Source: Candidatus Zhuqueibacterota bacterium (lineage in GTDB: Bacteria; Zhuqueibacterota; Zhuqueibacteria; Thermofontimicrobiales; Thermofontimicrobiaceae). From it: a stretch of DNA of 14,139 nucleotides. The position numbers and the translations under genes were made by a program. Numbering within the stretch: the stretch's first letter is position 1; the number at the start of each line of letters is the position of its first letter. The notes beneath the pieces are model-generated. The model made no database searches. It had not been told where the DNA came from and saw only the letters and a list, made by a program, of their open reading frames with translations. The stretch lies in assembly GCA_049322915.1 (NCBI GenBank), contig JBMOPW010000018.1, positions 1-14,139 of the forward strand, in the 5' to 3' direction. Positions 193-10,860 of this stretch are shown one piece after another.

Positions 193-2211
193 ATGTCCGA
201 AGCAATGTTCAAATGTCCGCAATGCAGCAAAGAGGTGCGCCGGGAAAAGATCATTGCCAACAATTATTCCTGCGTCAATCCGCACTGTTCGTTGAATGGG
301 CGATTGCTGGTGCATGGCGAAGTATCCACCACCGGCAACCTCAGCAAAGTCTACGGCTGGGTGCTTCAGCCCGGCGCCGTATTGGCAAAAAAATATGAAA
401 TCGTGAAAATGCTCGGCAAGGGCGGCTACGGCGCCACCTACCTGGCCCGCGACCATTCCATGTTCCGGCAGCTTCGCGCCATCAAAGAGGTGCCGCGCCA
501 ATTCTGCGACGACACCGAGGACGAATTTTTGACCGTGCTCAATCACCCGGCCATTCCGCGGCTGTACGAGCGATTCAACCACGGCCAGTTTCATTACAGC
601 GTCATGGAATTTGTTGAGGGCGAAAGCCTGGAGCAGATCGTCAAACGCCGCGCCGGCGGACTCGATGCGAACGAACTGATGCATCTGGCGCGCCAGATTG
701 TTGACGTGCTGGATTATATCCATTCCCGGAAAATCGTCCATCGCGATTTGAAGCCGGACAACATCCTCGTCCGCAAGAACGGCGCCATCGCGCTCATCGA
801 TTTTGGCATTGCCAAGCACTTCAGATCCGGCATTGGCACGCGGCATCTGGCGCGGGCCGCGTCCTACTGCTATTCATCTCCGGAACAATACCAGGCAGGC
901 AAAGGCCTGACCGATTTCAAATCCGATATTTACTCGCTGGGCGCGATCCTCTATTTCATGGCCATCGGGGTTGAGCCGCCGGACGCTCTCTCGCGGGATA
1001 GCTCCCGGGATATTTCACCGACGCCGCGCAGCCTGAATTCCAAAGTGTCCCCGCTGTTGGAGCGGGTCATCATCAAAGCCACGCGGATGCAGAAGAATGC
1101 CCGATTCAAAAGCATTTCCGAGATGCGGCAGGCGCTATTCGGACGCGCCACGTCCCAGCGCCGCAATCACTGCCCCCGCTGCCATACGCCGATTGAACCG
1201 GGGGACAAATTCTGCAGCGCATGCGGCTCATCGACTCAGCCTGTCGATCCGGCTACGGTCCCGTCTCTGGCGTTTCGGTCCGGGGAACAGGCGACCAGCA
1301 TCGGGCAACTGGCCGCGCTGTGTCAGAGGCATTGGAGCGAGGCGGTGCAGCTACTTTATCAGGGCAAAATCGAAGCCTGGCTGAAATCCCTGCCGGACGG
1401 CGCAACGCTCGCCCGGCAGACCGTCGCCATACGCAAAACCAATCCCAACAAAAATGAAGGACTGAACCATTTCCTGGTCGCCTCCGGATTTAGCGCGCTT
1501 CCAAAATTGGGAACCACTCAGGCGCGCCTGAGCTGGTCGGGATCAACGTCGACTCCAGGCGACGCCCTCATCCTTGACGTGACCAACGCCGGCGGCGGCT
1601 GCCTGATGGGAACGGTGGTCCCGTCCGCCTCCTGGCTGAGCATTGGCCAGCCATCGTTCTCCTGCCTGAAAGGCAATTGCGTCCGAATTCGAATTCAAGT
1701 CGATGGCGCGGCCGGGAAAAAACAGCGCAACCGCTCCGCAACGCTGCGCATCGAATCCAACGGAGGCAATGTCTCCATCCCGGTGAATTGCACCCCGGCC
1801 GATGGGAAACGCGCCTCCGTGAAATCGCATCGCTTCGCCGGCTTTCTCGCTCCCATCGTCCTGTTCATCGCCTTCATGCTCGCCATCCGCTATCTGGGAC
1901 CAACGGCGCAACCGCGACTGGCGTCGCCGGAGGTCATCCTGGTATCCGGCCTGTTCCTGTCCCTGATGAACATGCGCTTCGGCAAAATCGGCATGGCGCT
2001 GGGATTCATCATGGGCCTGTGCATCGGCGCTTTTCTGGACATCGTCGCCTACTATCTATTCCCGGTCCTCAATTCCGGAATCATCGATCCGGCCATTCAA
2101 TACATCACGTCGTCCTCGTCGGCGCCAAAAAATTTCGCCGGCTGGGGCATGCTGGGCGCGTACATGGGCGGAACGTTCGTCTTTTTCTCCCGAAAGAAAT
2201 TGAGAAAGTGA
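193..2211 (+). CDS. Hanks-type Ser/Thr protein kinase with zinc ribbons, a BACON/Ig-like domain and C-terminal TM helices (672 aa)
   Basis: GGAG RBS at 183-186. Kinase motifs LGKGGYGATY, AIKE, HRDLKPDN, DFG, YSSPEQ, SDIYSLG. CPQC..CVNPHC at the N-terminus and CPRC..CSAC after the kinase domain. NAGGGCL..WL..SNGG beta-sandwich pattern. Hydrophobic C-terminal segments. Confidence 0.93.
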   Translation: MSEAMFKCPQCSKEVRREKIIANNYSCVNPHCSLNGRLLVHGEVSTTGNLSKVYGWVLQPGAVLAKKYEIVKMLGKGGYGATYLARDHSMFRQLRAIKEVPRQFCDDTEDEFLTVLNHPAIPRLYERFNHGQFHYSVMEFVEGESLEQIVKRRAGGLDANELMHLARQIVDVLDYIHSRKIVHRDLKPDNILVRKNGAIALIDFGIAKHFRSGIGTRHLARAASYCYSSPEQYQAGKGLTDFKSDIYSLGAILYFMAIGVEPPDALSRDSSRDISPTPRSLNSKVSPLLERVIIKATRMQKNARFKSISEMRQALFGRATSQRRNHCPRCHTPIEPGDKFCSACGSSTQPVDPATVPSLAFRSGEQATSIGQLAALCQRHWSEAVQLLYQGKIEAWLKSLPDGATLARQTVAIRKTNPNKNEGLNHFLVASGFSALPKLGTTQARLSWSGSTSTPGDALILDVTNAGGGCLMGTVVPSASWLSIGQPSFSCLKGNCVRIRIQVDGAAGKKQRNRSATLRIESNGGNVSIPVNCTPADGKRASVKSHRFAGFLAPIVLFIAFMLAIRYLGPTAQPRLASPEVILVSGLFLSLMNMRFGKIGMALGFIMGLCIGAFLDIVAYYLFPVLNSGIIDPAIQYITSSSSAPKNFAGWGMLGAYMGGTFVFFSRKKLRK

Positions 2212-4386: not shown

Positions 4387-5838
<1,452 letters not shown>

Positions 5839-5959
5839 AGCGTCGCCGGGGCCAGGAAGTGCGCCGACCTGTGATTATTTCGAACCACGAATATCCCGAA
5901 CGGCGCGAAGTATTACCGAATGGTGCGACTCTCAGGGAATATGTTCCAATCCATTTTCA

Positions 5960-5981
5960 GCGCCGGATATATATCCGGCGC
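5960..5981. repeat. Perfect 22-bp palindrome GCGCCGGATATATATCCGGCGC
   Basis: Self-complementary sequence in the intergenic region downstream of glpK. Confidence 0.85.
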
Positions 5982-5992
5982 GATCAGGAATA

Positions 5993-6068
5993 ATTTTCCC
6001 AAATGAATAGCCCCGATCCCGCGAGGGATCGGGGATGATGAGCATCCAGAAAATTTGGGCTTTAGCCC
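5993..6068. repeat. Solo half-unit of the REP-like family found at 6936-7560
   Basis: ATTTTCCCAAATGAATAG-CCCCGATCCC-GCGA-GGGATCGGGG...GGGCTTTAGCCC matches the right arm of the array units, with a different hairpin loop. Confidence 0.88.
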
Positions 6069-6096
6069 GGATTTTATGTTTTCAGGAGACATCACA

Positions 6097-6930
6097 ATGA
6101 AAAAATTTTCCTCTTCCGTTTTGCTGGTGCTGCTGCTGGCGGCTCAGGCCGGCGCATTCGATTTTCCGCAGATCCATGGATGGACGCCGCTGGGCGAGCC
6201 GGCCATCTACACCCCGGACAATCTCTACGAGTACATCAACGGCGCCGCGGACCAGTTCATCGACTACGGCCTCGTCCTGCTGCACACGCGGGAACTGAGC
6301 GCCGGCGCTGTGCAGGTCGCGCTGGATATTTACGACATGGGCAATCGCCTCAACGCCTTCGGCATGTACAAAACCGAACGGCCGGCGGACCGGCCCCTTC
6401 TGGCCATTGGCAGCGAGGCCGTCATTTCGCCGCCGTACCAGTGCCTGCTGCTCAAAGATCAATTCTATGTCAAGGTGAATGTGTTTGGCGGTGAGATCAC
6501 CGGGGAGATGGGAACGCAGTTGCTGACAGCCGTGGCCCGGGCTTTGCCGGGTCAGGCTGGCCTGCCGGCGGAGTTGGCGCTGCTTCCGGCAGACGGCAAA
6601 ATCCCCGGGTCCGAAGCTTTTGCCAAAAACAACTATCTGGGACGGACCGACCTCACCGATTGCCTCTACGCCGGCTATCGCGACGGCGAGTCAGCGTTTC
6701 AATATTTCGTGCTGACAGCAACGCCGGATTCGGCGCTGGACGCGCGCTGGAATTCGCTGGCAGCGCAATGGACGCCGGCGGCGCAGCCCGGGCGCAGCAT
6801 CCTGATTAAAAAAATTCCCTACAAAGGTTTGATCGGCGTGGTGAAGTTGGAGGATCGGATCATCGGGGTCACCGATTGCAGCGATGAGGGTCAGGTGATC
6901 CGGCGGCTCACGAAGGCGACGACGGAGTGA
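6097..6930 (+). CDS. Secreted/periplasmic hypothetical protein, DUF6599-like
   Basis: AGGAG RBS before ATG 6097. Signal peptide MKKFSSSVLLVLLLAAQAGA. Motif YTPDNLYEYINGAADQF..DIYDMG..NAFGMY, which I recall from DUF6599 proteins. Confidence 0.75.
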   Translation: MKKFSSSVLLVLLLAAQAGAFDFPQIHGWTPLGEPAIYTPDNLYEYINGAADQFIDYGLVLLHTRELSAGAVQVALDIYDMGNRLNAFGMYKTERPADRPLLAIGSEAVISPPYQCLLLKDQFYVKVNVFGGEITGEMGTQLLTAVARALPGQAGLPAELALLPADGKIPGSEAFAKNNYLGRTDLTDCLYAGYRDGESAFQYFVLTATPDSALDARWNSLAAQWTPAAQPGRSILIKKIPYKGLIGVVKLEDRIIGVTDCSDEGQVIRRLTKATTE

Positions 6931-6935
6931 ATCTT

Positions 6936-7560
6936 TCGGGGCTAAAGCCCAAAAATTAAAAGTAAATTTCTGATCCCCGACTTAAAAGTCGGGGCTATTC
7001 AAATTTTGTTAGTATTCAAGCGCGAAAGGCCATTTGAACATCCCGATTCTTTCTCCCAGTTGAATAGCCCCGATCTTCAGATCGGGGATTAATAGCGCTC
7101 AAAATAATTTGGGCTTTAGCCCATTATTTGATTGCACAGAAGCTCGGGCTATTCAAAGCTCGCGGCTATTCAAATTTTGTTAGTATTCAAGCGCGAAAGG
7201 CCATTTGAACATCCCGATTCATTTTCCCAATTGAATAGCCCCGATCTTTAGATCGGGGACTGATAGCGCTCAAAATAATTCGGGCTTTAGCCCATTATTT
7301 GATTGCGCAGAAGCTCGGGGCTAAAGCCCAAAAATTAAAAGTAAATTTCTGATCCCCGACTTAAAAGTCGGGGCTATTCAAATTTTGTTAGTATTCAAGC
7401 GCGAAAGGCCATTTGAACATCCCGTTTCATTTTCCCAAATGAATAGCCCCGATCTTTAGATCGGGGACTGATAGCGCTCAAAATAATTTTTGATAGCACT
7501 GAAGCCCGAATTCTTCGGGCGGGACTTTATGAACTTCGCTCTGAAGAGCGGAGCTATTCA
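6936..7560. repeat. Tandem array of REP/BIME-like palindromic units (about three copies plus a diverged arm)
   Basis: Units at ~6936-7144, ~7145-7314 (left arm largely deleted) and ~7315-7489 (3' end truncated). Full unit is GGGCTAAAGCCC..CCCCGACTTAAAAGTCGGGGCTATTCAA-~60 nt-TGAATAGCCCCGATCTTYAGATCGGGG..GGGCTTTAGCCC. A diverged arm lies at ~7495-7560. Confidence 0.92.
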
Positions 7561-7671
7561 TTATTTTCCCGCCACTGAAAAACGGTATGATTTTGGAAAT
7601 TTCCCGGTGTGGTTCAACAACCACTTGCACAGATCATACGCTTTTTTCTGAATTATCATCTCCTGCGACAT
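7561..7671 (-). pseudogene. avd: Truncated DGR accessory protein Avd-like (four-helix-bundle family) N-terminal fragment, 36 aa
   Basis: Below the ORF-track length cut-off. AAAGGAGG RBS (7677-7684) lies 5 nt before ATG 7671. Translation MSQEMIIQKKAYDLCKWLLNHTGKFPKSYRFSVAGK* fits the Avd N-terminal pattern I.QK.YDL..W......KFPK..RF. It sits 28 bp downstream of an FGE-type target gene. Confidence 0.78.
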
Positions 7672-7699
7672 TTTACCCTCCTTTCAGAGTAACAGATTG

Positions 7700-10600
7700 T
7701 CAGATTTCCAGAGTATCAAAAACTTTGGACTCGGAGAAGACGACGCGAAAACCAACGAAGCTCCAGCCGCCATCGGGATCGTCGCAGACGCGGGAAGGAC
7801 GACGAAGATGGGTATCATCGCTGTCCCAAGAGCCGCCGCGCAACGATCGCGCCGCAGGGTACATATCATGGTTATTGCTCTGCCATTCCCAGACATTGCC
7901 GGCCATGTTCATCAGTCCCTGCGGCGTGGAGCCGTCCGGATAGCGATCCACCGGCGTGGTGGCGCCCACATTTTGACCATAGTTAGCCAGCTTCGGTGTG
8001 GGTTCGCCTTTGTCGCTTGGCCAGGGAAATTCCCGCAGCGAGCCATCAGGTTGACCAAACGCAGCCCATTCCCATTCCCTCTCATGGGGCAATCGGTAAT
8101 GCAGCGTCGCCTCGGCCAGGGTCACGCTATTTTTGGATTTCCCCGAAGCGGTTCCCAGCAGCGTCAGCCACAGGCAATAGGCCATGGCGTCGTACCAGGT
8201 CACACTCGTCACCGGCTGGTCGCTGCCGAGGAATTTCTTATTGTCTTCCTTTGAGGCAAGCTTTTTCGGCCATTGCTTCGGATCCTCCCCCAGGTACTTT
8301 TTGTAACCCTCTTCAATTTTGGAGAATTCCAGCAACTGCTCAATAAACGAATTCAGCAGCAACAGACCATTGAGATCTTCGGCCTCGCCTCTCAAATAAG
8401 CGATGAAGCGATTGTAGCGTTTGTTGGTCACCGGGTGCTTGGCAAAATAGGTATCCGGGACTGTGACTTTTTTCTTTGTCACCGTAAAGGTATAGGTTCC
8501 GCCGGGGATGAGGATGTATTCGGCGTTCTCCTCCAGCGGGTTGCGAAACGAGGTTGGCTTTGTCTCAAACAGCGTTGCAGCAGCCGGAGCGCTGATCGGC
8601 GCCGGTCGTTCGAATTCAGCGGCCATGTCGCGGGCGTGTCGCGCCGCCGTATCCCTTCGCTTTCCGTACTGCGCGATGAGGTGTCTGGCCTCCTTCGTGC
8701 CAATGGTTTTGAGGCAATTCAGGATATAGCGCTTTTTATCGGCGCTGATTCCGGTGGCTGATAGTCGCTGCCACAGGGCGTCGGTCTTTTTTGCCGGGGC
8801 GTCGCTGATCAGCAATTCCAACAGAGTTTGCTGCGCTTGAGTGAGATCGTCCGTCACCGCCGAGGCGAACAGAGCGGCCATGAATCGGTCGAACAGATCC
8901 GCATCCGGCGTGCCCATGAAGAAGCGCAGCGGCTCCTCCCACCAGGCGTTGCCAAAATGGGCCGCCAGTTGGTTCAGATAATCGTCCTCCCCGGCCTGCT
9001 TTTTCATCTGCAAGCTGGCCAGATATTCCCGAAACGATTTATGCCGGAAGATATAGTTGGCGTCGCCCCAGGGGGCCAGAATGCCGGCGCGCTTGCACAG
9101 GTTATCGCAGAACGCTTTAGCGGTGAGGTCTTCCTTCATGGGCGTAATCAACGGTTGCAGTTTGTCGTGCATTTCCTGCCGGGATACATCGTCCCGCCCT
9201 ATTTTCTCCTGCATCCATAAAGAAGCTGGCGCCAGCGCCGCGGTCGCCTGATCAGCGGGCAGCAGCGGATTCAGGCCGCGCTGGCGATCGCGGTAGTCCA
9301 GCAGATAGTTCATCGCCGCGCTGAACAGCTCGGTCCGATTGTGCGCATGGAATGTCCGCTCCCGACCCAGCAGGGCGATGATCTGCAGCAGCAGCGGGGA
9401 ATCGGCCAACTTGCGCACCGCCTGATTCTCCTTCTTCGCCAGATAGTCGATGAGTTCCCCGGCCTTCCGTTCGCCGGCGCGGATATTTTTTTCGCGCCAG
9501 TCCGCAGGAGCATCCGGGGGTGGTATCTCCTGCTGAGCCACGGCGCGGAACCATTTGCCCAGGAACTCCTGCTGCTGGTCCCAGCTAAATTCCCTGATGT
9601 CCGCGCGGACATGGGCGAATACCAGTTCGATGCCGTCCAGTTTGGCGTAGCCGGTCCAGCGCGACGTCACGATGAATCGCGCAGATGGCAACCCGGCCGC
9701 TTTCTGGTCGATCCACGTGCAGGCCTTCTTTCGGGCTTCCACGCTGCTGATTTCATCCAGCCCGTCGAGCAGGATCAGCGTCTTTTTCTCACGCAGCCAG
9801 TCTTCAAACACCTGTTCGTCCGTGGTGCATTCGTGGCAGTTCGTCCAAAGAGTCAGATTGGCGCTGAGCGACTTCCCCACATCCAGATCCCGCAGCGGGA
9901 AATACAGGACGAACACATCTTCAGGCAGACCCAGTCGGCTGGCGTTGCCTTCCAGGCAGGCCATGGCGTAATACTTCAGCAGCGTGGTCTTGCCGGACCC
10001 TGGATCGCCGATGATGAGCAGCAGCCGTTTGCGCGCAAAGGCGCGTTTGATAATTTCATCCGGGGCTAAATCCTGAGCCGCCTGAGCTTCGGCCGTCTCG
10101 CGATGCGGTGATTGATATGGGTCCTCCGACCGCCATGTCTCTGATAGTCGCAGATTGACGAACGCGCCCATCAGGCTGACCGGCACACTTTGAACGTGCG
10201 GCGAGCCCAGCAGGGTGATCGCTCCCAGCTCTTCTATCAGCGCATCTTTGAGCACCTGCTCGGCGGTGCGGACTTTTTTTGCGTTTTGAGATTGATCAAA
10301 ATTTTTCAGTCCTTCAGCCTGGGCAGCGGCGAGTTTCTTTTCCAGTTCAATTTTGTAGGCCTCTATTTCTTTTTCATGCCTCTCCCTCTCTTCCAGGCGA
10401 ATTCGCTCCAACTCCTGCTCATGCAATTTTTTTTCTTCCTGTCGGATTCGCTCCAACTCCCGTTCATGCTTTTTATTTAAATGTCTGTACATTTCGAAAA
10501 ACAGTGCGAGCAGAGCCACAGCAAAAGTCGCGATGGCAACCCAATTCGGCGAAGCGTCTTCTCTGGATTGTTGCGCATTTCCCATAGGGCTTTGCTGAGG

Positions 10601-10708
10601 AGCGGGGCGCATGTCCGGGTGCGTCGCGGCAGAATCCGTACGGCTGGTGTCCTGGGCCGGGAGGGTGAGCGGGATGAAGAGAAAGAGGATAAGTATCAGA
10701 TGTTTCAT
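7700..10708 (-). CDS. Membrane-anchored NACHT NTPase with C-terminal FGE-sulfatase/SUMF1 (CLec-fold) domain; probable DGR target (1002 aa)
   Basis: ATG 10708 follows GGGGA (alternative ATG 10720). Signal peptide MKHLILILFLFIPLTLPA, TM helix WVAIATFAVALLALFF, charged coiled coil. Walker A GDPGSGKTT (~9983-10009), Walker B LILLDGLDEI, IVTSR, SPLLL, FRHKSFREYLA. FGE motifs HPVTNKRY, PVTSVTWYDAMAYC, RLPHEREWEWAA, MAGNVWEW, RGGSW, GFRVV. Confidence 0.92.
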   Translation of the reverse strand: MKHLILILFLFIPLTLPAQDTSRTDSAATHPDMRPAPQQSPMGNAQQSREDASPNWVAIATFAVALLALFFEMYRHLNKKHERELERIRQEEKKLHEQELERIRLEERERHEKEIEAYKIELEKKLAAAQAEGLKNFDQSQNAKKVRTAEQVLKDALIEELGAITLLGSPHVQSVPVSLMGAFVNLRLSETWRSEDPYQSPHRETAEAQAAQDLAPDEIIKRAFARKRLLLIIGDPGSGKTTLLKYYAMACLEGNASRLGLPEDVFVLYFPLRDLDVGKSLSANLTLWTNCHECTTDEQVFEDWLREKKTLILLDGLDEISSVEARKKACTWIDQKAAGLPSARFIVTSRWTGYAKLDGIELVFAHVRADIREFSWDQQQEFLGKWFRAVAQQEIPPPDAPADWREKNIRAGERKAGELIDYLAKKENQAVRKLADSPLLLQIIALLGRERTFHAHNRTELFSAAMNYLLDYRDRQRGLNPLLPADQATAALAPASLWMQEKIGRDDVSRQEMHDKLQPLITPMKEDLTAKAFCDNLCKRAGILAPWGDANYIFRHKSFREYLASLQMKKQAGEDDYLNQLAAHFGNAWWEEPLRFFMGTPDADLFDRFMAALFASAVTDDLTQAQQTLLELLISDAPAKKTDALWQRLSATGISADKKRYILNCLKTIGTKEARHLIAQYGKRRDTAARHARDMAAEFERPAPISAPAAATLFETKPTSFRNPLEENAEYILIPGGTYTFTVTKKKVTVPDTYFAKHPVTNKRYNRFIAYLRGEAEDLNGLLLLNSFIEQLLEFSKIEEGYKKYLGEDPKQWPKKLASKEDNKKFLGSDQPVTSVTWYDAMAYCLWLTLLGTASGKSKNSVTLAEATLHYRLPHEREWEWAAFGQPDGSLREFPWPSDKGEPTPKLANYGQNVGATTPVDRYPDGSTPQGLMNMAGNVWEWQSNNHDMYPAARSLRGGSWDSDDTHLRRPSRVCDDPDGGWSFVGFRVVFSESKVFDTLEI
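7733..7840 (-). other. Candidate DGR variable region (VR)
   Basis: Encodes RGGSWDSDDTHLRRPSRVCDDPDGGWSFVGFRVVFS. Of 36 consecutive codons, 34 end in C/T and the other two are TGG, as expected for codons derived from AAY by adenine-specific mutagenesis. Confidence 0.65.
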
Positions 10709-10860
10709 ATTCGTCCCCATTGAATGATACGTTGTTGTCACAGTGGTAACAGGGGAAACATCGTATTTTTTTATCAAAAAGTCAAGACATATTTGTAACA
10801 GGTGGAATAGTGCACTGCAAAAGAGGAAATTTTCGTTGGCCGTACATCGCAAATTTGGGC

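What the first reader, a model, noticed from the sequence alone, without database searches (positions are those of the whole stretch)
7561..10708. NLR-like NACHT-FGE protein that appears to be a DGR hypermutation target (target gene, VR and avd remnant, with no TR or RT in the window)
Seen: a NACHT protein ending in an FGE/CLec domain. Its terminal RGGSW...GFRVV segment has 34 of 36 codons ending in pyrimidine (e.g. GAC AGC GAT GAT..CAT..TCC CGC GTC TGC GAC GAT..GGC GGC TGG AGC TTC), and an Avd-like ORF follows 28 bp after the stop. Known: DGRs diversify this C-terminal segment of FGE-type CLec folds through A-to-N changes in AAY codons, and target-avd-TR-RT is a common gene order; several bacterial NACHT proteins are anti-phage NLR-like sensors. 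Inference: this is an NLR-like receptor whose ligand-binding surface was or is hypermutated. It is either frozen after loss of TR/RT or diversified in trans by a DGR elsewhere in the genome.
Basis: partly seen in the sequence, partly recalled or inferred. Interest (0 to 1): 0.88.

Follow-up and report, generated by a model that had tools for sequence, protein, structure and literature searches.

The report
Orphaned hypermutation target on NLR-like sensor
This gene encodes an immune-receptor-like protein whose binding tip was once rewritten by a mutagenic retroelement, but the retroelement beside it has been deleted, a kind of decay already described in other bacteria.

Summary
The minus-strand gene 7700-10708 encodes a membrane-anchored NACHT NTPase that ends in an FGE-type C-lectin domain. 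In its RGGSW..GFRVV segment (7739-7840), 32 of 34 codons end in a pyrimidine, against 47% in the rest of the gene. A 36-codon Avd stub starts 28 bp after the stop.

The DGR-target reading is supported.
- The closest homologue differs from it mainly at codon positions 1-2 of the same codons.
- Those codons line up with AAY codons in the template repeats (TRs) of intact target-avd-TR-RT cassettes beside metagenomic homologues.

The cassette here is gone. Only Avd residues 1-34 remain, followed by about 630 bp of local repeats, and the window holds no TR or RT.

The genome has one complete DGR (contig C16) and a second TR with two NACHT-FGE targets (C14). Neither TR is cognate: they show 20 and 27 non-adenine mismatches in 96 nt, against 0 for the true pairs. 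An adenine-tolerant scan of the assembly found no other template. The one assembled contig of the possible source sample crosses the VR without variants, which is weak evidence.

Best reading: a frozen, orphaned DGR target. This kind of locus is already published (Doré 2024), and this scan has noted similar wrecks in other genomes.

Side finding: four phased YCTG repeats lie just 3' of the VRs and not 3' of the TRs.

The parts
7700..10708 (-). NACHT-FGE/CLec gene, 1002 aa, intact. It has a signal-like hydrophobic N-terminus, one TM helix, a charged coiled-coil-like stretch, a NACHT NTPase, a helical middle and an FGE-type C-lectin domain.
   Evidence: P0003 called from 10708; hydrophobic segments at aa 1-19 and 56-74, 57% E/K/R/Q over aa 76-140, Walker A GDPGSGKT at 234, Walker B-like LILLDGLDE at 311. 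It aligns over 95% of its length to its closest listed homologues.
9542..10027 (-). NACHT NTPase domain
   Evidence: Pfam PF05729, E 5.4e-15, residues 276-437 of P0001.
7739..8527 (-). FGE-sulfatase (C-type-lectin-fold) domain that carries the VR at its end
   Evidence: Pfam PF03781, E 1.2e-32, residues 776-1038. PDB sequence hits include Treponema denticola variable protein TvpA 2y3c, E 1.2e-6, over the VR-bearing part.
7739..7840 (-). Variable-repeat (VR) relic, RGGSW..GFRVV. The hypervariable codons lie in 7754-7825.
   Evidence: 32 of 34 codons end in a pyrimidine and adenine is 10%. Differences from the G005 homologue by codon position 1/2/3 are 9/11/2 here and 7/3/16 in the 5' flank. The codons coincide with AAY codons of TRs in intact cassettes.
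7685..7712 (-). Four phased YCTG repeats (TCTG-N5-TCTG-N4-TCTG-N5-TCTG) overlapping the stop codon. This element is found next to VRs and not next to TRs.
   Evidence: It does not fold better than shuffled sequence as single-stranded DNA (z -0.64).
7561..7671 (-). avd stub: 36 codons plus stop. Homology to Avd ends after residue 34.
   Evidence: The alignment to the G005 stub shows an 8-bp gap at 7570/7571, followed by loss of similarity.
6931..7560 (.). Repeat-filled spacer where the rest of avd, the TR and the RT would lie. It holds local duplications (171-bp period) and two copies of a 65-bp repeat dispersed about 50 times in the genome (6938-7002, 7317-7381).
   Evidence: TRF and blastn against the genome. 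No Rfam family hit. No Avd or RT homology.

Best explanation
The gene encodes an NLR-like STAND protein. It has an N-terminal membrane anchor, a central NACHT NTPase and a C-terminal FGE-type C-lectin sensor domain. The last ~25 surface codons of the sensor were written by a diversity-generating retroelement (DGR).

The ancestral locus was target-avd-TR-RT, as still seen beside metagenomic homologues. A deletion or replacement removed everything after avd codon 34 and left short local repeats in its place. No template in the assembly matches the VR, so the binding surface is now a fixed allele.

Shown here: the domain architecture, the VR signature, the Avd stub, the absence of TR and RT at the locus, and the non-cognate state of both TRs in the genome.

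Inferred: that the protein senses a ligand through the lectin tip and signals through NACHT oligomerisation to the membrane-anchored N-terminus; that the truncation is evolutionarily recent; and that no diversification occurs now.
For: (1) VR signature. 32 of 34 codons end in Y against 47% elsewhere in the gene, p = 6.7e-9, with adenine depleted.

(2) Closest homologue (G005, same genus). Differences by codon position 1/2/3 are 9/11/2 in the 24-codon variable block, against 7/3/16 and 1/1/2 in the flanks. Fisher p = 1.9e-4.

(3) Family level. The columns after RGGSW, after LRCSAR and after P are hypervariable, while the scaffold is nearly invariant, in 120 homologues.

(4) Intact relatives. 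I analysed the 55 of 75 metagenomic loci whose match reached the C-terminus. Seven carry a cis TR with 10-24 adenine mismatches and 0-1 other mismatches. Among all 75 loci, tblastn found DGR-RT homology in 12 and Avd homology in 15. The order in L079 is target stop 5043, avd 5176-5511, TR 5578-5680, RT 5893-6888. The AAY codons of those TRs align with the window's variable codons.

(5) Stub. It is 74% identical to Avd residues 1-31, and nothing else Avd- or RT-like is in the window.

(6) Genome search. There is one DGR RT (C16). The other RT is an RT-TPR-AEP protein next to a Cas6 gene. There are two TRs, on C16 and C14, each with 13-14 adenine mismatches and 0 other mismatches to its own VRs. 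Against the window VR they have 20 and 27 non-adenine mismatches in 96 nt. An adenine-tolerant scan of all 45 contigs with 156 nt of the VR gave a best non-self hit with 42 non-adenine mismatches. A six-frame motif scan listed 12 VR/TR-like segments and no further template.

(7) A second NACHT-FGE gene in the same genome (C7) is followed by a 41-codon DGR-RT stub, so cassette decay recurs here.

(8) Published parallel. Degenerate DGR loci in which arrays of MITE-like repeats replaced the RT or TR are described next to NACHT-CLec targets (PMC10907252, passages read).
Against: The assembly is 96% complete in 45 contigs, so a template on unassembled DNA cannot be excluded.

Only assembled contigs of the possible source sample could be laid, not reads. 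One 4960-bp contig at depth 68.6 crosses 7459-8500 with no other letters, but contigs drop rare variants.

The stub differs from the G005 stub at 12 synonymous and only 2 non-synonymous codons out of 34. So avd was under purifying selection for most of that divergence. The truncation is therefore recent, or the stub itself is kept, and intact variants may still exist in the population, as was found with long reads in Thiohalocapsa.

The VR-side YCTG element is retained.

The same genome does run a TR without a cis RT (C14), so trans supply of RT and Avd is plausible there.

The protein's sensor or defence function is untested. PADLOC gave only a weak P-loop hit (mad8, E 1.4e-5).
Confidence: 0.78

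Rival explanations
1. The target is still diversified. A cognate TR (with or without its own RT) lies on unassembled DNA or exists only in some cells of the population, and the C16 RT and Avd, or its own, act in trans on this VR.
For: The genome already has a TR with two cognate NACHT-FGE VRs and no RT or Avd beside it (C14; RT and Avd hits only elsewhere). The YCTG element next to the VR is intact. The stub shows purifying selection. Coexisting structural variants with intact and degraded DGR parts were reported in Thiohalocapsa (PMC10907252). The assembly is 96% complete.
Against: No template was found by BLAST, by the adenine-tolerant scan or by the motif scan. Both known TRs are non-cognate. 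The laid contig crosses the VR unbroken and without variants at depth about 69. This last point is weak, because only contigs were available.
Confidence: 0.12
2. The complete DGR on contig C16, or the C14 template, cross-diversifies this VR despite imperfect homology.
For: The VR has the same length and register as both TRs (32 codons from GGSW to GFRV) and shares the scaffold codons.
Against: It has 20 and 27 non-adenine mismatches in 96 nt, against 0 in the three cognate pairs. The 3' end, where homing is primed, also differs. A search with the C16 TR found only its own VR in the genome with 25 or fewer non-adenine mismatches.
Confidence: 0.02
3. The codon bias has nothing to do with a DGR. 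It would be a chance or compositional feature of an ordinary FGE-family enzyme.
For: NCBI names homologues 'SUMF1/EgtB/PvdO family nonheme iron enzyme', and the domain hits FGE and EgtB structures by sequence.
Against: The Avd stub follows 28 bp after the stop. Variation from the closest homologue falls at codon positions 1-2. The variable codons coincide with AAY codons of true TRs. Seven of 55 homologous loci have a cis TR that differs only at adenines. p = 6.7e-9 for the bias.
Confidence: 0.02

Closest known systems
DGR-diversified STAND NTPase (NACHT/nSTAND1)-CLec 'putative antigen sensors' of Thiohalocapsa PB-PSB1 and other clade-5 cellular DGRs, including their 'degenerate' loci (Doré et al. 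2024, PMC10907252; passages read)
   Same: Both have a central NACHT with a C-terminal DGR-type CLec/FGE domain and an N-terminal extension without a known effector domain. In both, the genome holds several such genes, some loci lack RT, Avd or TR, and arrays of MITE-like repeats replace cassette parts. Trans service of a remote TR or target occurs in the same genome.
   Different: This is a different organism; a same-genus relative's record is titled uncultured Cytophagia bacterium. No cognate TR is present anywhere in the assembly. Most of the incomplete PB-PSB1 loci were still diversified, whereas diversification could not be shown here. Their supplementary figures were not read.
FGS (FGE-sulfatase, C-lectin fold) domains coupled to DGRs in NTPase-centred conflict systems (Kaur, Burroughs, Iyer, Aravind 2020, PMC7159879; passages read)
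   Same: The hypervariable FGS domain always sits at the C-terminus of a signalling NTPase protein. The TR can be 'in the same gene neighbourhood or elsewhere in the genome', and a TvpA-type FGS is involved.
   Different: Those passages concern mainly vWA-MoxR ternary and iSTAND systems. No vWA, MoxR or effector-associated-domain partner was found among the window's neighbours.
Bordetella phage BPP-1 DGR (mtd-avd-TR-brt), as summarised in Wu et al. 2018 (PMC5758913; passages read)
   Same: Both have a C-terminal VR on a C-lectin fold, avd directly after the target, and adenine-specific differences in the intact relatives.
   Different: This is a cellular gene, not a phage gene. The target is a cytoplasmic NTPase rather than a tail fibre. 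No GC-rich inverted repeat follows the VR; four phased YCTG repeats lie there instead. TR and RT are absent.
Bacterial NACHT (bNACHT) and Avs anti-phage STAND proteins (bioRxiv 10.1101/2022.07.19.500537, seen in a search listing and abstract only)
   Same: Both have the tripartite layout of N-terminal module, NACHT NTPase with Walker A and B motifs, and C-terminal sensor.
   Different: The sensor here is a DGR-type lectin domain rather than TPR or another repeat. No PADLOC defence family matched beyond a weak P-loop hit. Anti-phage activity is untested.

Membership tests
DGR variable (target) protein, FGE/CLec type | C-terminal FGE-type C-lectin domain | tested here: met
   PF03781, E 1.2e-32, over nearly the full profile. 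TvpA 2y3c, E 1.2e-6. This is sequence-level evidence only; no structure was predicted.
DGR variable (target) protein, FGE/CLec type | VR with variation at positions that correspond to template adenines (AAY codons) | tested here: met
   32 of 34 NNY codons. Differences from the closest homologue fall at codon positions 1-2. The codons coincide with AAY codons of the TRs of six intact relatives.
Active DGR cassette | Cognate TR that differs from the VR only at adenines | tested here: not met
   None in the window or in the 45 contigs. The C16 and C14 TRs show 20 and 27 non-adenine mismatches in 96 nt.
Active DGR cassette | DGR reverse transcriptase at the locus | tested here: not met
   The only RVT_1 hits are on C16 and C34. 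tblastn of two DGR RTs against the window gave no hit with E below 0.069.
Active DGR cassette | Full-length accessory protein Avd | tested here: not met
   Only residues 1-34 remain.
Active DGR cassette | Ongoing VR diversity within the population | tested here: inconclusive
   Only assembled contigs could be laid. One contig spans the VR without variants, but contigs drop rare variants.
NACHT-clade STAND NTPase (NLR-like) | NACHT domain with Walker A and Walker B motifs | tested here: met
   PF05729, E 5.4e-15. GDPGSGKT and LILLDGLDE motifs, both invariant or nearly so in 20 homologues.
Characterised anti-phage bNACHT/Avs systems | Match to a defence-system model, or demonstrated phage protection | tested here: not met
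   PADLOC gave only mad8, E 1.4e-5, over 53 residues around the P-loop. Phage protection cannot be tested with these tools.
Formylglycine-generating enzyme (catalytic SUMF1) | Catalytic cysteine pair and sulfatase-maturation activity | not tested
   Residue-level alignment to FGE structures was not inspected. One search lists FGE chains at E about 1e-6 over query residues 30-230 only, which is upstream of the VR.

The most novel reading that the evidence does not exclude
The locus may not be dead. The four phased YCTG repeats immediately 3' of the VR could be the target-recognition signal of this DGR lineage, taking the place of the BPP-1 cruciform. These repeats are conserved beside VRs across distant homologues and are absent beside TRs. 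Because the window keeps this element, together with a selectively maintained Avd stub, the orphan sensor would still be a competent acceptor for a template carried by only part of the population or on unassembled DNA.
Probability: 0.15. Interest if true: 0.55.

Novelty: new member of a known kind. Interest (0 to 1): 0.3.

Why it matters
The locus adds one more case to the published picture that multi-copy NACHT-lectin 'antigen sensor' genes gain and lose their private hypermutation cassettes.

In this one genome, four NACHT-FGE genes show three states:
- two with a template but no RT of their own (C14);
- one with an RT stub (C7);
- one with an Avd stub (the window).

A frozen VR is a natural experiment. 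It is a single receptor specificity that selection or drift has fixed, and it could be expressed and screened for a ligand more easily than a moving target.

The more useful by-product is the phased YCTG element next to VRs. If it is the acceptor signal, it would give a simple sequence mark for finding remote DGR targets, and a part to test in reconstituted DGR systems.

Tried and rejected
- BLAST of 271 nt around the VR against the own genome found only self and matches of 32 nt or less in the conserved NVWEW region of other FGE genes.
- The genome-contig scan with the protein returned a single locus, the same-genus relative already in hand.
- An Rfam scan of the window found nothing.
- Sequencing runs: only three runs of one study were listed, all kept as contigs. 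X2 had no cover and X3 had a 48-nt stretch from another organism. These say nothing about absence or habitat.
- The C34 RT was considered as a second DGR RT and rejected. It is an RT-TPR-AEP (TOTE-type) protein beside a Cas6 gene.
- The C20 Avd-like hit is a 23S rRNA IVP-family protein and is not next to any RT.
- In G005, a fragment with an avd 3' end and a TR on contig C115 was considered as the missing half of that genome's cassette. By my own reading, its TR differs from the G005 VR at many non-adenine positions, so it was rejected.
- The YCTG element was tested as a hairpin and does not fold better than shuffled sequence (z -0.64).
- A search for papers holding both 'diversity-generating retroelement' and 'TCTG' found 16, of which 10 were listed. 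None of the 10 titles concerns such an element and none was read, so I cannot say whether it is unpublished.
- The script stopped on a JSON error after printing all of its rows.
- One search failed on a coordinate slip and was corrected.
- No structure prediction, complex prediction or representative-library search was run.
Full report
**What is in the window**

The window is a whole 14,139-bp contig (C18) of a 6.25-Mb, 45-contig assembly estimated 96% complete.

On the minus strand an ORF runs 7700-10852. The database's gene call starts at the Met at 10708 and gives 1002 aa (P0003). Pfam finds a NACHT domain (E 5.4e-15) and a full-length FGE-sulfatase domain (E 1.2e-32) at the C-terminus.

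The N-terminus has these features:
- a signal-like hydrophobic stretch (aa 1-19);
- a second hydrophobic helix (aa 56-74), followed by a basic patch;
- a stretch with 57% E/K/R/Q;
- Walker A (GDPGSGKT) and Walker B-like (LILLDGLDE) motifs.

From the basic residues after the second helix I infer that the NACHT and lectin parts are cytoplasmic.

By sequence, the lectin domain matches solved FGE-fold proteins. These include the DGR variable protein TvpA of Treponema denticola (2y3c, E 1.2e-6), over the part that carries the variable segment.

**Check of the observation**

In RGGSW..GFRVV (7739-7840), 32 of 34 codons end in C or T, and the two exceptions are TGG. The rest of the gene has 481 of 1016 (47%). 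The binomial p is 6.7e-9, and this is the top 34-codon window in the gene. Adenine is 10 of 102 bases, against 24.5% gene-wide.

The downstream ORF starts 28 nt after the stop and is 36 codons long. Its Pfam bAvd hit is sub-threshold (21.9 bits against a cut-off of 40) and covers only profile positions 1-30 of 107. It is 74% identical (E 4e-17) to residues 1-31 of a 112-aa Avd in an intact cassette.

**Is it a DGR target?**

Three independent lines say yes.

*1. Closest homologue.* It lies in a genome of the same genus (G005, 51% identity overall). It ends ...RGGSWSDVDNSLRRPSRVNDFPDYNWLYVGFRVV. Codon by codon, the two genes differ as follows:

| Region | Codons | Differences at position 1/2/3 |
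|---|---|---|
| 5' flank | 50 | 7/3/16 |
| Variable block | 24 | 9/11/2 |
| 3' flank | 17 | 1/1/2 |

The pattern is reversed in the variable block (Fisher p = 1.9e-4). Scaffold codons such as CGT CGT CCT TCC CGC GTC are identical in the two genes.

*2. The wider family.* Among 120 homologues (40-57% identity, many phyla), the columns after RGGSW, after LRCSAR and after the conserved P are hypervariable. The scaffold columns are almost invariant.

*3. Intact cassettes beside metagenomic homologues.*
- 75 metagenomic loci encode relatives. I analysed the 55 whose match reached the C-terminus and dropped the 20 that did not.
- Seven of the 55 carry a TR in cis with 10-24 adenine mismatches and 0-1 other mismatches: L079, L092, L098, L104, L111, L113 and L129.
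- Among all 75 loci, tblastn finds DGR-RT homology in 12 and Avd homology in 15.
- The TRs of six of these cassettes have the same 33-codon GGSW..GFRVV register. Their AAY codons fall where the window has its NNY codons.

**What happened to the cassette**

tblastn of three full-length Avds and two DGR RTs against the window recovers only Avd residues 1-37, at 7564-7665. Every other hit has E >= 0.069.

Against the G005 stub, the window has an 8-bp gap right after codon 34, a few more matching bases, and then unrelated sequence.

The 630 bp that follow (6931-7560) hold:
- local duplications with a 171-bp period;
- two copies of a 65-bp repeat that occurs about 50 times across the genome.

Next comes a convergent DUF6599 gene. 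Rfam finds nothing in the window.

**Is it served in trans?**

The genome's DGR inventory, as far as the assembly shows:

| Locus | Content |
|---|---|
| C16 | Complete cassette: 321-aa FGE target, VR, Avd of 117 aa, TR, RT of 357 aa |
| C14 | A second TR flanked by two NACHT-FGE genes; the second has an in-frame stop; no RT or Avd nearby |
| C7 | A DUF4062-NACHT-FGE gene followed by a 41-codon stub 50% identical to residues 6-37 of the C16 RT |
| C18 | The window |

The only other RT (C34) is an RT-TPR-AEP protein next to a Cas6 gene. The only other Avd-like hit (C20) is a 23S rRNA IVP-family protein.

Mismatches in the 96-nt GGSW..GFRV core:

| Pair | Adenine mismatches | Other mismatches |
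|---|---|---|
| Three cognate TR/VR pairs | 13-14 | 0 |
| Window VR vs C16 TR | 23 | 20 |
| Window VR vs C14 TR | 22 | 27 |

An ungapped scan of both strands of all contigs, in which a template A may pair with anything, gives a best non-self hit of 42 non-adenine mismatches in 156 nt. BLAST and a six-frame motif scan that lists all 12 VR/TR-like segments show no further template.

So no template in the assembly can write this VR. The genome does nevertheless seem to use RT and Avd in trans for the C14 template.

**Evidence from sequencing data**

Only Logan contigs of three runs of one study were available, and the run that holds the stretch may be the source of the assembly.

One 4960-bp contig at depth 68.6 crosses 7459-8500 with no differing letter. 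No variant is listed inside the VR. Variants and alternative joints appear only in the repeats below 7490. Contigs drop rare variants, so this only weakly favours a fixed VR.

**Timing, and what argues against 'dead'**

The stub differs from the G005 stub at 14 of 34 codons, 12 of them synonymous. Against a rough neutral expectation of 70% non-synonymous, p = 2.5e-5. avd was therefore under protein-level selection for most of the divergence of the two copies.

The stubs end at different points:
- window: after residue 34;
- G003, another genus of the family: about residue 40;
- G005: about residue 48, followed by a repeat found at several contig ends;
- metagenomic L056: about residue 50.

I read these as separate, fairly recent truncations. 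A functional mini-peptide is not excluded.

Recent loss, a 96%-complete assembly and the published coexistence of intact and degraded variants in one population keep the 'still diversified' rival alive at about one in eight.

**How it most likely works**

This part is inference, drawn from established knowledge of STAND/NLR proteins and from the papers cited. The lectin tip binds a ligand. Binding releases NACHT-driven oligomerisation. The output goes through the membrane-anchored, coiled-coil N-terminus, which has no recognisable enzymatic effector.

No partner effector gene is evident. The divergent upstream ORFs have no confident Pfam hit and no PADLOC hit. The protein itself matches no defence model beyond a weak P-loop hit.

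With the cassette gone, the receptor now carries one fixed specificity.

**Comparison with what is known**

NACHT- or nSTAND-CLec DGR targets, multiple loci per genome, degenerate loci and trans service are described by Doré et al. 2024. The FGS-DGR link to NTPase conflict systems is described by Kaur et al. 2020.

This scan has also noted decayed DGR cassettes with Avd stubs, and NACHT-FGE targets, in other genomes. I did not check those notes.

The locus is therefore a new member of a known kind, and interest is modest.

**Side finding: phased YCTG repeats**

Immediately 3' of the VR, overlapping the stop codon, lie four YCTG repeats at 8-9-nt spacing (7685-7712).

- A strict four-repeat pattern occurs 13 times in 1.12 Mb of the metagenomic loci (both strands counted). 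All 13 are on the target-gene strand. Twelve lie at or just after the end of an FGE-type gene or of a VR-like copy found; I did not place the thirteenth (L092 at 2584).
- In the own genome the pattern occurs 11 times in 12.5 Mb. Two of these follow a GFR codon run: the window and the C7 gene.
- With a looser count, 23 of 52 homologous loci have four or more YCTG within 36 nt after the GFR codons, against 0.6% of random 140-nt segments. All 7 TR-downstream regions have two or fewer. The nominal p is 2e-37, but the loci are related, so that figure overstates the case.
- The element is absent from the more distant L111/L113 class. By my own reading it is also absent from the C14 VRs.
- It does not fold better than shuffles (z -0.64).

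Wu et al. report GC-rich inverted repeats downstream of the IMH in only 34% of DGRs. A different VR-side signal in other lineages is therefore plausible.

One literature search showed no title on such an element. I read none of those papers and make no claim that it is unpublished.

Noticed in passing
window 7685-7712 (-); also L014 (G000:C16) about 8925-8960, G000:C7:210447 (+), and many of L056-L129: Four phased YCTG repeats (8-9 nt spacing) lie directly 3' of VRs. 23 of 52 homologous loci have four or more within 36 nt, against 0.6% of background segments. All 7 TR-downstream regions have two or fewer. The element does not fold as a hairpin. It is a candidate VR-side recognition element for this DGR lineage.
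   Followed up: partly
G000:C14:573533-579553 (locus L132): A second template repeat (at 577148) sits between two NACHT-FGE genes. Their VRs differ from it at 14 adenines each and at no other base in 96 nt. No RT or Avd is nearby, so it is probably served in trans by the C16 RT and Avd. The second target has an in-frame stop at 578981-578983.
   Followed up: partly
G000:C7:207407-210622 (locus L131): A DUF4062-NACHT-FGE gene (1009 aa) with a VR-like end is followed by a 41-codon stub of a DGR RT N-terminus and then repeats. This is a second decayed cassette. The matching locus in the same-genus genome (G005:C27), also followed by a GlnRS-like ORF (my reading of its translation), keeps target-avd-TR.
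   Followed up: partly
G000:C16:7981-10856 (locus L014): A complete DGR: a 321-aa FGE target, Avd, TR and RT. TR and VR differ at 13 adenines and at no other base in the 96-nt core.
   Followed up: yes
window 6938-7002 and 7317-7381: A 65-bp repeat is dispersed about 50 times over at least 20 contigs of the genome. Here it is embedded in local 171-bp-period duplications. It looks REP- or MITE-like, and its structure and origin were not studied.
   Followed up: partly
window 7570-10852 compared with L022 (G005:C41): The two homologues are mosaic. The 5' two-thirds (NACHT and helical part) are 17-62% identical at DNA level, while the FGE domain, VR flanks and avd stub are 61-88% identical. The flanking genes I looked at differ. 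This suggests exchange or mobility of the 3' module.
   Followed up: no
window 193-2211 (+): A 672-aa Ser/Thr protein kinase with a zinc ribbon gives strong matches to PADLOC PD-T4-6 kinase models (E 3e-50). Its C-terminal half has no domain hit. It is separated from the NACHT gene by housekeeping-type genes.
   Followed up: no
G000:C34:429473-433078 (locus L009): An RT-TPR-AEP primase (TOTE-type) fusion protein lies directly downstream of a Cas6-domain gene. It is not a DGR RT.
   Followed up: no
L040 (G005:C115), minus strand, about 1440-1600: An isolated fragment in the sister genome consists of the last ~16 codons of avd followed by an AAY-rich TR, with no RT ORF evident downstream. It is another degenerate DGR piece.
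   Followed up: no
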